Shown here in pieces: positions 20,019 to 34,049 of a DNA stretch of 64,000 nt (positions are counted from its first letter, which is position 1; each line of letters starts with the position of its first letter). Position numbers and translations under genes: made by a program. Source of the stretch: an uncultured Acidobacteriota bacterium. Its GTDB lineage: Bacteria > Acidobacteriota > Vicinamibacteria > Vicinamibacterales > UBA8438. The stretch is taken from the NCBI GenBank assembly GCA_913043225.1, contig CAJWLU010000011.1, positions 32,001-96,000 of the forward strand. Direction: 5' to 3'. The notes under the pieces were generated by a model. The model saw only the letters and a program-made list of their open reading frames with translations. It was not told the DNA's origin and made no database searches.

Positions 20019-21088
20019 TGGCTACCAGCCGCTTCTTTCGCCCCGCCGTCGCCCGGCTTGAGCCCTACACGCCGGGGCGGCAACCAGCCCCTGACGCCCG
20101 AGTAGTAAAACTCAATACCAACGAAAATCCCTACCCGCCTAGCCCTGCGGCCCAGGCGGCGCTTGCCTCCCTCGACGTCGATGGTCTACGCCGCTATCCG
20201 GACCCGATGGCGGCGACCTTCCAGCAGGCGGTAGCTGAGACACTCGGCGTGGCTGCAGACTGGGTACTGGCCGGTAACGGCAGCGACGACCTGCTCACGA
20301 TGCTGTTCCGAGCGGTGGCCGGCCCCGGTCGGGCGGTTGCCTACCCCAACCCCACCTACGTGCTGTATCGCACCCTGTCCGCCATGCAGGAAGCGCCGGT
20401 CATCGAAGCGCCGTTCGACTCCGACTACCGGCTCCCGGTCGACGCCCTGATCACGGCGGGCGCGCCGTTGACGCTGGTCGCCAATCCGAACAGCCCGTCC
20501 GGCACACTGGTTCAACTCGACGATCTCGACCGGCTGGCCGCCGGCCTAGACGGGCTGCTGGTCGTCGACGAAGCGTACGTCGCCTTCGCCAGTAGCGACG
20601 CGCTGCCGCTGATCCGATCCCATGACAACGTGCTGGTCCTACGCACCTTGTCGAAGAGCCACGGTCTGGCCGGACTGCGTCTCGGGTTCGCCGTGGGACA
20701 ACCGGACGTACTCGCGGGCCTGACCAAAGTGAAGGACAGCTACAACGTCGATGCGGTCGCCATGAAGATAGGCGCCTCGGCACTGCGCGACACTACTTAC
20801 ACGGCGGAGGTAGTTGCCAGGATCATCGCCACCCGTACCCGCCTGGTCACCGCGCTCGAACAACGTGGCTTCCGGGTGTGGCCAAGCCAGGCCAATTTCG
20901 TGCTGGCCCGCCCCGTCGATGGTGATGCGCGGCGACTGCACGCGGGTCTTGATGCTCGCGGCGTGCTCGTGCGCTATTTCGACGAGCCTGGCCTGGATGA
21001 CTGCCTGCGCATCACGGTGGGCACCGACGAGGAACAAGCCCGGCTGCTCGACGCCCTATCGGAGCTACAACCGCCGGCGAACGCCTGA
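20018..21088 (+). CDS. hisC: Histidinol-phosphate aminotransferase
   Basis: KLNTNENPY, GNGSDD, NPNSPSG, VDEAY and RTLSKSHGLAGLRLG (PLP lysine); start reassigned to GTG 20018. Confidence 0.93.
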   Translation: MATSRFFRPAVARLEPYTPGRQPAPDARVVKLNTNENPYPPSPAAQAALASLDVDGLRRYPDPMAATFQQAVAETLGVAADWVLAGNGSDDLLTMLFRAVAGPGRAVAYPNPTYVLYRTLSAMQEAPVIEAPFDSDYRLPVDALITAGAPLTLVANPNSPSGTLVQLDDLDRLAAGLDGLLVVDEAYVAFASSDALPLIRSHDNVLVLRTLSKSHGLAGLRLGFAVGQPDVLAGLTKVKDSYNVDAVAMKIGASALRDTTYTAEVVARIIATRTRLVTALEQRGFRVWPSQANFVLARPVDGDARRLHAGLDARGVLVRYFDEPGLDDCLRITVGTDEEQARLLDALSELQPPANA

Positions 21089-21331
21089 ACACGCTATCCC
21101 GGTGCCTGCTGATCGTGCGCCGGGACGACGTCGATCGCCGCTGGTGGCATCGTCACGCCACCTAGCCCAACCGCTTTCCGATGGCCGTCGAACGAGCCAA
21201 GCGTTTCCCCCAGTATGCGATCATCGACCTCTGGCACACCGAAGAGCAAGCTCACGTTCGCCTTATCGGAAACGTTCCGACTGCCGCCTCCGCCGGCTTC
21301 CGCCGACGACCCGGTATAATGTGCCACTTTG

Positions 21332-22288
21332 ATGGTTAGACCTGCGGTCCCCGGCAAGGACTCCCTTCGAAAACGGCACGCACACGCGTTTCCTCCCATC
21401 CTGCATGTGGAGTTGACCAACGAGTGCAACCTCGAGTGTCCGATGTGCGCCCGCACCACCAGCATGACCCGACCGGTGCAGCACATGAACACGGATCTGT
21501 TCCGACGCATCATCGATGACGTGGCGGGACGCGGGGTGCAGAAGCTCTGGCTGCACCACTTCGGCGAGTCGCTTCTCCATCCCCAAGCGTACGAGCTGAT
21601 TGAGTACGCGGCACGGAAGAAAGACCTCGGACTGGTGGCCCTCTCGACCAACGCCACCACCCTGAACGAGAAGAACGCGCGCAGACTGATCAAGACTAGG
21701 CTGCACCATCTCATTCTCTCGGTCGACGCCCACTCGGACGACGTCTACACTGTCGTGCGCGGCTTCGACTTCGAGCGGGTGCTGGCCAACGTTCGCGGCT
21801 TCCTCGCCCTGCACAAGGAGACGGAGTCGAAGATGAGCGTGGCGCTGCTGTTCATCAATATGGGCATCAAGCGTCACGAACTCGAGGCGTTCAAAGAGGC
21901 CTGGGCACCCTACGAAACCAAGCGGGTCAAGGTGGTCATCAAGAAGATGACCAACTACGGTGGCGTAATCGACACCTCCCAATTCGCCGGCGGGCAGTCC
22001 GACACCGAGGTCTACGACCGGTCGCGACGCCGCAGCTGCCCCAAGCTGTGGGACAGCCTGACTATCCAATCGAACGGGCAGGTGGTGGCCTGTGGCTACG
22101 ACGTGAACGGCACTATGCCCTACGGCAATGCGAGCGACATGACGCTGCTCGATGCCTGGAACGGCGACGCGATCGAGGAACTCCGACAGCGGCACGTCGA
22201 GCTGAACTTCAACGATCTCCCGCTGTGTGACGGATGCGATAAGACGTTCAAGAAACGCCGGACTGCACCCGACGACGACCTCATCTAG
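21332..22288 (+). CDS. Radical SAM protein with a SPASM/twitch domain
   Basis: CNLECPMC cluster motif; GESLLHP; STNA; C-terminal CPKLW...GQVVACGYD...YGN...CDGC. Confidence 0.92.
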   Translation: MVRPAVPGKDSLRKRHAHAFPPILHVELTNECNLECPMCARTTSMTRPVQHMNTDLFRRIIDDVAGRGVQKLWLHHFGESLLHPQAYELIEYAARKKDLGLVALSTNATTLNEKNARRLIKTRLHHLILSVDAHSDDVYTVVRGFDFERVLANVRGFLALHKETESKMSVALLFINMGIKRHELEAFKEAWAPYETKRVKVVIKKMTNYGGVIDTSQFAGGQSDTEVYDRSRRRSCPKLWDSLTIQSNGQVVACGYDVNGTMPYGNASDMTLLDAWNGDAIEELRQRHVELNFNDLPLCDGCDKTFKKRRTAPDDDLI

Positions 22289-32984: not shown

Positions 32985-33140
32985 ATGGGTCCGATAGGTC
33001 TCCCCGAGCTGGTCATCATCCTGTTGATTCTGTTGCTCATCTTCGGCGCCAACCGTCTGTCCGGCCTCGGCCGCGGAGTGGGTCAGGCGATCCGCGGCTT
33101 CAAGGACGAAATGGGTAACAAGGACGACAAGGACGAATAA
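32985..33140 (+). CDS. tatA: Twin-arginine translocase subunit TatA/E (absent from the ORF track; 51 aa)
   Basis: MGPIGLPELVIILLILLLIFGANRLSGLGRGVGQAIRGFKDEMGNKDDKDE; AAGGAGG SD. Confidence 0.93.
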   Translation: MGPIGLPELVIILLILLLIFGANRLSGLGRGVGQAIRGFKDEMGNKDDKDE

Positions 33141-33240
33141 CCCGCGGCATGCCCGCCGCAGTTCACCGTACATGACAAGGACCGACGCCCACGCTTACGC
33201 GTGGAGGTCGGTCCTTATTTTCTTGCGCGCCAGCCGACGA

Positions 33241-33774
33241 CTAGTTGGCCAGCCCGAGGTCTTGCATGTGGGCGACGAGATCCCCGCCGGCGGTCGACGG
33301 GTTCACTTCTTTGTCGATCCGCAGGATCTTGCCATCGCCGCCGATGATAAACGTCCACCGGAACGGGAACGCGCGCTCGGCAGTGACCACGCCATAGGCC
33401 TCAGCCACTTCCTTGGTCGGATTACTCAGTAGAGGAAAATCGGAGTCTAGCGACTCGGCAAATTCCTTGTTGGTCTGAGGGTCATCGACACTGATCATGA
33501 AATAAGCCATATCGATGGCCTGCAACTCGTCGCTGGATTCACGCAGCGACTTGCACTGAGCCGTTCAACCACCGGTAAACGCCTTGGGGAACCAGGCCAG
33601 CACCACCACCGTGCCCGAATAGTCAGACAGGCTGTGGGTTTTGCCGTCAGACCCTGGCAGACTGAAGGCTGGCGCCATATCGCCAACCTCGAGCCCCTGA
33701 GCCTGGGCTCCGCCGACGCCTACCGCAGCCACGGCCACGAAGACCATGACGCCGAGGGCGACGAACATCTTCAT
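33241..33774 (-). CDS. Exported selenocysteine-containing peroxiredoxin (BCP/PrxQ-like, AhpC/TSA family)
   Basis: Track ORFs 33565-33774 and 33241-33525 are one frame: ...WFPKAFTGG[TGA]TAQCKSLR...ISVD...FPLLS...AYGV...RWTFII; the TGA (33565-33567) occupies the peroxidatic Cys site of PxxxTxxC. Confidence 0.88.
33521..33555 (-). promoter_or_regulatory. Bacterial SECIS-like stem-loop
   Basis: Begins after a 9-nt spacer 3' of the UGA: UGCAA-GUCGCUG-[CGUGAAUC]-CAGCGAC-GAG-UUGCA (7-bp upper stem, bulge, 5-bp lower stem). Confidence 0.7.
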
Positions 33775-34049
33775 TACTCCACTCCTTGAGTGTAAGGACC
33801 GCCGAAAGACCGATTCACCCTACCAGACTGCATGGAGCGCCGTCTACTGAAACAGCGCGGTCTCGGAGAACTGTGCGAACCGGCCGAACCAGAACGTCCG
33901 GTGCTCCGACAGCCGCGGGAGCCTGGCGCCGGCCCCACTCCGGCCACGAGCCTAGGCAGCACCCGCCATGCCTATCCGACGGTCCCAGTTCGCATGCGCG
34001 TGTTTCTCAGACACCCCGCCGGCAGGGAATGGTTCGTAACGACAGCGCC

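What the first reader, a model, noticed from the sequence alone, without database searches (positions are those of the whole stretch)
33241..33774. Hidden selenoprotein: exported peroxiredoxin with UGA at the peroxidatic site and a SECIS-like hairpin
Seen: two short minus-strand ORFs lie in one 178-codon frame broken only by TGA at 33565-33567, in [13 protein letters not shown] hairpin (UGCAA-GUCGCUG/CAGCGAC-GAG-UUGCA, 33555-33521) follows a 9-nt spacer. The protein has a classic signal peptide (…GGAQA-Q). Known: peroxiredoxins use PxxxTxxC, bacterial Sec insertion needs a stem-loop just 3' of the UGA, and Sec-peroxiredoxins have been reported from environmental sequence. Inferred: this organism decodes Sec and exports a seleno-peroxidase with a UxxxC centre, which standard gene callers would split or call a pseudogene.
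Basis: partly seen in the sequence, partly recalled or inferred. Interest (0 to 1): 0.82.

Follow-up and report, generated by a model that had tools for sequence, protein, structure and literature searches.

The report
Exported selenocysteine peroxiredoxin of marine Acidobacteria
The apparent stop codon inside this gene is kept in dozens of related bacteria together with an RNA hairpin and very likely encodes selenocysteine at the active site of a predicted exported peroxide-destroying enzyme; selenium peroxiredoxins are a known family, so this is a solid new member, not a new kind.

Summary
Confirmed. Window 33774-33241 (-) is one 177-residue frame broken only by TGA at the peroxidatic position of a BCP/PrxQ-fold peroxiredoxin (PKAFTGG-U; Arg139). 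The genome has selA, selB, selD and tRNA-Sec, and uses TGA as its commonest stop. Of 62 related loci from the same order, 51 have TGA at this codon, 10 have TGC and 1 was not parsed. All 49 genomes with TGA have selA or tRNA-Sec; none of 4 genomes lacking the machinery has TGA. A 7-bp hairpin with a G-U loop fits the published bacterial SECIS model. In a wider set it is found in 67 of 70 TGA copies and 0 of 8 Cys copies, with compensatory changes. The signal peptide and Cys74 are conserved; export, activity and the role of Cys74 are inferred. Sec-peroxiredoxins (COG1225, TxxU) were the second commonest selenoprotein family in the 2005 Sargasso survey, and exported peroxiredoxins (PprX) are known. 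This scan noted the same gene type on four other genomes. New member of a known kind.

The parts
33241..33774 (-). Single gene for a 177-aa peroxiredoxin precursor (BCP/PrxQ-like fold), read through one TGA as Sec70; ends in TAG
   Evidence: Pfam AhpC-TSA E 1.2e-32 over residues 30-150, across the TGA; model pLDDT 89; fold matches to BCP, PrxQ and AhpE
33782..33787 (-). Shine-Dalgarno-like AAGGAG, 7 nt before the ATG
   Evidence: seen in the sequence; function inferred
33700..33774 (-). Predicted Sec-pathway signal peptide, residues 1-25, AQA|Q cleavage site
   Evidence: hydropathy 2.97, no RR or lipobox; hydrophobic N-terminus in 58 of 58 scored subfamily loci and 116 of 120 database homologues, absent from the 2 ordinary BCPs; a heuristic, not SignalP
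33565..33588 (-). Peroxiredoxin active-site motif P63-x-x-x-T67-x-x-U70
   Evidence: P63 and T67 invariant in 114 aligned proteins
33565..33567 (-). In-frame TGA, predicted selenocysteine 70 at the peroxidatic position
   Evidence: TGA in 51 of 62 related loci, TGC in 10, 1 not parsed; 70 TGA and 8 TGC among 78 parsed of 80 wider loci
33529..33550 (-). Conserved bacterial SECIS core: GUCGCUG (33550-33544), loop CGUGAAUC (33543-33536), CAGCGAC (33535-33529); the loop starts 21 nt after the UGA and has G-U at positions 2-3
   Evidence: criteria from PMC13188914
33521..33555 (-).
33553..33555 (-). Cys74, the only cysteine of the protein, four residues after Sec70 (UxxxC); candidate resolving residue
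   Evidence: Cys at +4 in 120 of 120 database homologues, 78 of 78 parsed wider loci, 50 of 51 TGA loci; role untested
33358..33360 (-). Arg139, the conserved peroxiredoxin arginine
   Evidence: invariant in 114 aligned proteins; aligns with the Arg of 2ywn, 3drn and AhpE

Best explanation
This is one intact gene whose conserved in-frame UGA is very likely decoded as selenocysteine by the genome's own SelA/SelB/SelD/tRNA-Sec system and the hairpin behind it, giving a peroxiredoxin that is predicted to be exported and would reduce peroxides in the cell envelope. Shown: the frame, the conserved TGA/TGC alternation at the peroxidatic codon, the covarying hairpin tied to TGA copies, the machinery and the predicted fold. 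Inferred from known biology: SelB-Sec-tRNA binds the G-U loop 21 nt downstream and inserts Sec70; the precursor crosses the inner membrane by the Sec translocon and is cut after Ala25; the selenolate, positioned by Pro63, Thr67 and Arg139, attacks the peroxide and becomes a selenenic acid. Least certain (about 0.55): Cys74 resolves it as an intramolecular selenenylsulfide after local unwinding of helix 68-79, and an exported thioredoxin-fold partner fed by the genome's single DsbD-type transporter re-reduces it, as ScsB-TlpA does for Caulobacter PprX.
For: SelA (440 bits), SelB (314 bits) and SelD (292 bits), each over its curated cut-off, and tRNA-Sec(TCA) (69.9 bits; ARAGORN agrees) in the own genome. 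TGA at the same codon in 51 of 62 loci from 49 of 61 genomes of the order, down to about 55% identity. All 49 have selA (48) or tRNA-Sec (45); the 4 genomes without selA, selB and tRNA-Sec have no TGA copy, and two of them have a TGC copy. Stem >=6 bp plus loop G in 67 of 70 TGA loci and 0 of 8 TGC loci. In 13 TGA copies from other families of the order: 95.6% of cells paired, 3 of 7 pairs change on both sides, covariation 0.245 against 0.087 shuffled (0 of 500); Cys copies 63-65% paired, no excess over shuffles. The commonest codon holds 0.90 of sequences on average at 7 degenerate positions in codons +1 to +12, against 0.64 at 26 such positions elsewhere (34 family sequences). Other TGA-broken genes of known selenoprotein families are in the genome (FdhA, UGSC, OsmC-like, rhodanese, two Prx-like). 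One DsbD-type gene.
Against: No protein-level evidence of Sec, export or activity. The hairpin alone is common by chance (4.7% of TGA triplets). In the own family the stem is so conserved that only 2 of 7 pairs change on both sides, in 3 cells. Relatives are not independent, and the shuffle controls ignore relatedness. Four Sec-capable genomes (G039, G045, G055, G057) carry only Cys copies, so Sec is not required for the family's function. Cys74 lies at +4; the aligned solved relative 2ywn has its second Cys at +5, so Cys74 may be a buried structural residue; one TGA copy (L054) has Gly there. NCBIfam's best model (PRK09437, 84.8 bits) is below its cut-off of 140. RNA runs are contigs of close strains and do not show transcription or strand.
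Confidence: 0.93

Rival explanations
1. Pseudogene or sequencing error: a Cys codon mutated to a stop.
For: Table-11 gene calling gives two fragments; the 69-aa fragment is in the public protein set in a cluster of 13.
Against: Same TGA in 51 loci of 49 genomes with intact frames on both sides and in 70 of 78 parsed wider loci; contigs of other runs keep it.
Confidence: 0.01
2. UGA is read as Trp, Gly or Cys through a changed genetic code or a suppressor tRNA, not as Sec.
For: 8 of 120 database homologues have W at this site (their DNA could not be checked, probably code-4 gene calls). ARAGORN found no tRNA-Cys among 39 tRNAs, so the tRNA set is incomplete.
Against: TGA ends 577 of 1,329 long coding frames, the commonest stop; the only TCA-anticodon tRNA found scores as tRNA-Sec; homologous DNA alternates with TGC only; TGA copies track the Sec machinery.
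Confidence: 0.03
3. Sec is inserted, but the enzyme works as a 1-Sec peroxiredoxin (like AhpE) or stays anchored in the membrane; Cys74 is structural and the oxidised Sec is reduced directly by a partner thiol.
For: AhpE (1-Cys) is tied with BCP and PrxQ in the fold comparison (Z 21.6 against 22.3, rmsd about 2 A); +4 lies inside helix 68-79 of the model; no paper on a CxxxC resolving pair in peroxiredoxins turned up (2 listings, not read).
Against: Cys at +4 is kept in 120 of 120 homologues and is the only other Cys in most, which is stricter than expected of a packing residue; AQA fits a cleavage site.
Confidence: 0.4

Closest known systems
Bacterial selenoprotein family 'Peroxiredoxin (Prx)', COG1225 (Bcp) / PF00578, motif TxxU (Sargasso Sea survey PMC1088965: 43 genes; PMC1794560: 12 genes; catalogues PMC9312934, PMC13188914)
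   Same: PF00578 domain, PxxxTxxU with Sec at the peroxidatic site, in-frame UGA with a downstream SECIS, widespread Cys homologues, marine occurrence.
   Different: In the passages I saw, none mentions a signal peptide or a UxxxC arrangement ('signal peptide': 0 occurrences in PMC13188914, PMC9312934, PMC1088965). I could not compare sequences with the catalogued members.
PrxU of Eubacterium acidaminophilum (Sohling et al. 2001, seen only as a reference entry; NCBIfam NF040737)
   Same: Experimentally shown Sec-peroxiredoxin.
   Different: Weak match only (49.4 bits, cut-off 270; model length 233): another subfamily.
PprX of Caulobacter crescentus, periplasmic BCP/PrxQ peroxiredoxin reduced by ScsB via TlpA (PMC3322552, passages)
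   Same: Signal peptide, BCP/PrxQ type, PxxxTxxC plus Arg; model for export and recycling.
   Different: PprX uses Cys, and its two cysteines are far apart in sequence; here Sec and Cys are four residues apart. Sequence kinship with PprX was not tested.
Solved BCP/PrxQ/AhpE structures (2ywn, 3drn, 3ixr, 5epf, 1xxu)
   Same: Same predicted fold (Foldseek E 6e-16, TM 0.75; VIA Z 22, rmsd 2.0 A over about 150 residues).
   Different: 20-35% identity; none has Sec; the second Cys is at +5, elsewhere or absent.

Membership tests
Bacterial selenoprotein | In-frame UGA aligned to a catalytic Cys of homologues, conserved on both sides | tested here: met
Bacterial selenoprotein | selA, selB, selD and tRNA-Sec in the genome | tested here: met
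Bacterial selenoprotein | bSECIS: 3-9-nt loop, 4-16-bp upper stem, G in the first two loop positions, 16-37 nt from UGA to loop, MFE <= -7.5 kcal/mol (PMC13188914) | tested here: met
   8-nt loop, 7 bp, loop C-G-U, 21 nt, -14.3 kcal/mol; checked by hand, bSECISearch itself not run
Bacterial selenoprotein | Selenium in the protein | not testable with these tools
   needs 75Se labelling or mass spectrometry
Peroxiredoxin (Prx, TxxU) | PxxxTxxC/U motif and conserved Arg in a Prx fold | tested here: met
   P63, T67, U70, R139; fold
Peroxiredoxin (Prx, TxxU) | Thiol-dependent peroxidase activity | not testable with these tools
   needs an assay
BCP/PrxQ subfamily | Subfamily profile or active-site signature | tested here: inconclusive
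   best NCBIfam hit PRK09437 is below cut-off; BCP, PrxQ and AhpE are tied in fold score; PREX profiling not available
BCP/PrxQ subfamily, alpha2 type | Resolving Cys five residues after the peroxidatic residue (CxxxxC; spacing recalled, seen in 2ywn and the genome's own BCP) | tested here: not met
   Cys is at +4, Lys at +5
Prx-like thiol:disulfide oxidoreductase selenoproteins (UxxC) | UxxC motif in place of TxxU | tested here: not met
   motif is TGGU-TAQC; the genome's UxxC genes lie elsewhere
Envelope peroxiredoxin (PprX-like) | Cleavable signal peptide and periplasmic location | tested here: inconclusive
   hydrophobic N-terminus and AxA conserved by a heuristic; location not testable
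Envelope peroxiredoxin (PprX-like) | DsbD/ScsB-type electron supply in the genome | tested here: met
   one gene with DsbD_N, DsbD_TM and thioredoxin domains; that it serves this protein is untested

The most novel reading that the evidence does not exclude
The signal-peptide GG(U/C)TxECK proteins are an uncharacterised peroxiredoxin subfamily that recycles through an i,i+4 selenenylsulfide, and in Vicinamibacterales they belong to a selenium-based periplasmic redox network: this genome also has two signal-peptide Prx-like UxxC selenoproteins fused to a DsbD N-terminal domain, a signal-peptide Sec-rhodanese and a Tat-type Sec formate dehydrogenase, beside one DsbD.
Probability: 0.35. Interest if true: 0.48.

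Novelty: new member of a known kind. Interest (0 to 1): 0.25.

Why it matters
Mostly as an annotation fix: a gene that is nearly universal in this acidobacterial family (35 of 36 sampled relatives) and common in other phyla is called as fragments, so these bacteria's envelope peroxide defence and selenium need are under-counted. The natural Sec/Cys pairs, with a SECIS that appears in two registers and decays in Cys copies, are a clean set for testing what Sec adds to a peroxiredoxin and whether a UxxxC pair can resolve. No new principle is needed.

Tried and rejected
Pseudogene/error and altered genetic code: rejected. The 12-bp hairpin as the SECIS: reduced to the upper 7 bp. A loose genome-wide motif-plus-hairpin scan gave 525 mostly spurious hits and was dropped; a coding-potential filter gave 95 candidates, of which I followed 7 loci by eye; one (L076) is two adjacent genes and was dropped. 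The survey is not a full selenoproteome. Direction of Sec/Cys change: the tree needs at least 4 changes (60 rows, L039 and L067 left out, many forks unresolved, midpoint root), so no direction is claimed. Promoter scan: 0 sites. RNA runs are contigs only, so expression is not shown; X16 does not cover the codon, 16 rows of other letters were not shown. tatA link: conserved neighbour but on the opposite strand, and the signal has no twin arginine, so Tat export was rejected. Literature: 10 searches gave no paper on an exported Sec-peroxiredoxin or on this subfamily; the library lacks most subscription papers. BSepDB screened Vicinamibacteria genomes (supplement table rows), but its entries could not be seen and may already hold this family. 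No complex prediction was run: an enzyme with its reductant is a poor case for it.

Full report
Observation. The minus-strand frame 33774-33241 has 178 codons and one internal stop, TGA at 33567-33565, in [15 protein letters not shown]. Table 11 splits it into 69-aa and 94-aa ORFs, and the 69-aa piece is in the public protein collection in a cluster of 13 such fragments. Read through, the protein matches Pfam AhpC-TSA over residues 30-150 (E 1.2e-32). The hairpin 33555-33521 folds as described (-14.3 kcal/mol, z -2.82), but wider windows are not exceptional (z -0.87 to -1.70), and 4.7% of the genome's 97,590 TGA triplets pass my simple SECIS-like test. Contigs from two further DNA runs and one RNA run cover the codon without a listed difference; a fourth run does not reach it. 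Run X2 holds the whole stretch unchanged but may be its source.

Organism. The best named relatives (82-86% identity) are Vicinamibacteria/Vicinamibacterales, Acidobacteriota; runs that hold the stretch are marine. The genome is 3.85 Mb, 96% complete, 64% G+C.

Machinery. SelA, SelB and SelD each score over their curated cut-offs and a tRNA-Sec with anticodon TCA is present. This SelD frame is open and fused to an N-terminal domain. TGA is the commonest stop of long coding frames (577 of 1,329), so the code is not 4 or 25. Other TGA-broken genes of known selenoprotein families were found by a coding-potential filter (95 candidates) and a motif scan; of 7 loci followed up, six gave FdhA, an OsmC-like protein, two AhpC-TSA/DsbD_N fusions with W-U-PYC, a rhodanese and a UGSC protein, and one was two ordinary genes.

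Conservation of the codon. 56 of 61 genomes of the order (own included) have a match at E <= 1e-20. Of 62 loci fetched, 51 have TGA at this codon, 10 have TGC (8 of this subfamily, 2 ordinary BCPs) and one split second copy (L067) was not parsed. The 51 lie in 49 genomes; 48 of these have selA and 45 tRNA-Sec, and each has at least one. The four genomes with no selA, no selB over cut-off and no tRNA-Sec (G041, G042, G058, G060; 94-99% complete) have no TGA copy; two have a TGC copy. Against a strict link: four Sec-capable genomes have only Cys copies. Kin are not independent. In the 80 best loci of a partial scan of all species genomes (about 2,200 stretches estimated), 70 of 78 parsed have TGA and 8 TGC; the TGA rows include records named Planctomycetota, Verrucomicrobiota and Acidimicrobiia (some overlap the first set). 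Of 120 database proteins, 112 have C and 8 W at the site; Sec forms cannot appear whole in that collection. A tree of 60 rows needs at least 4 Sec/Cys changes; direction is not established.

SECIS. The upper stem GUCGCUG/CAGCGAC with loop CGUGAAUC meets the four criteria of the bacterial model in PMC13188914 (passages). In 13 TGA copies from other families the same 5' arm mostly pairs in a second register with a 5-nt loop: 95.6% paired, 3 pairs with double changes, covariation 0.245 against 0.087, 0 of 500 shuffles. I took both registers from these sequences, and the shuffles ignore relatedness. The 8 Cys copies (7 distinct) pair at 63-65% in either register, no better than shuffles. In the wider set 67 of 70 TGA loci and 0 of 8 TGC loci have both a >=6-bp stem and the loop G. 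Codon choice is tighter in codons +1 to +12 (0.90) than elsewhere (0.64).

Protein. The model (pLDDT 89; low only over the N-terminal 25 residues) has a peroxiredoxin fold, with residue 70 at the start of helix 68-79. The closest solved folds are BCP, PrxQ and AhpE, tied at Z 21-22. P63, T67, C74 and R139 are invariant in 114 aligned proteins (the 8 rows chosen against were 7 of the W-bearing hits plus none other of note: I gave the alignment P0001 and 113 of the 120 hits). Cys at +4 is in 120 of 120 homologues. A hydrophobic N-terminus is present in 58 of 58 scored subfamily loci and 116 of 120 homologues, and absent from the two ordinary BCPs; 113 of 120 lack an early RR and 117 a lipobox. 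One DsbD-type gene is in the genome.

Mechanism. Shown: gene, codon alternation, covarying hairpin, machinery, predicted fold. Inferred from known Sec decoding and peroxiredoxin chemistry: SelB-dependent insertion of Sec70, Sec-pathway export, attack of the selenolate on peroxides. Least certain: resolution by Cys74 and recycling from DsbD, by analogy with PprX (PMC3322552, passages). A 1-Sec mechanism remains a real rival.

Comparison and novelty. [quoted passage not shown] Exported BCP-type peroxiredoxins are known since PprX. I also saw passages of PMC1914089, PMC12013277, PMC13326102 (plus rows of its supplement table) and PMC10298544, none on this subfamily. Ten searches found no paper on the combination of signal peptide, Sec and UxxxC, but BSepDB's entries and subscription papers could not be seen. 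Four earlier notes of this scan describe the same gene type on other genomes with the same verdict; they are not independent support, and my reading was stated before I saw them. Verdict: real, well supported, a new member of a known kind; interest 0.25.

Noticed in passing
window 32985-33140 (+): tatA lies tail-to-tail with the peroxiredoxin gene here and in 30 of 30 closest loci (L008-L037), but was found in only 10 of 80 wider loci (L078-L157); conserved synteny, no shared transcript possible.
   Followed up: partly
window 33177-33216: Strong inverted repeat between the two convergent genes (AAGGACCGAC ... GTCGGTCCTT), seen by eye; may be a shared terminator. The scan listed another terminator-like site at 33161-33142.
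   Followed up: no
L073:66-1334 (-) and L074:115-1266 (+) (G000 contigs C50, C1): Two signal-peptide-like AhpC-TSA proteins with W-U-PYC (UxxC), a hairpin 14 nt after the TGA, and a C-terminal DsbD_N domain (one over the Pfam cut-off, one below): candidate exported selenoproteins and possible redox partners.
   Followed up: partly
L075:103-543 (+), L072:79-624 (+), L071:73-3084 (+), L077:5494-6051 (-): Further candidate selenoproteins: rhodanese with a signal-like N-terminus, OsmC-like protein, Tat-type FdhA, UGSC protein; a second UGSC-like frame on contig C28 was seen.
   Followed up: partly
L004 (G000:C10, about 20022-22240 +): SelD is a long open frame (788 aa) with an extra N-terminal domain that looks like a pyridine nucleotide-disulfide oxidoreductase (by eye) and no in-frame TGA.
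   Followed up: no
P0002, P0004, P0005, P0039, P0062, P0093, P0095, P0096, P0132: Database homologues with W at the Sec position; probably TGA read under code 4 by gene callers, DNA not checked.
   Followed up: no
L067 (G029:C50), L054 (G040): A second copy in G029 is split into two frames after the TGA; the G040 copy has Gly in place of the +4 Cys while keeping TGA and hairpin.
   Followed up: no
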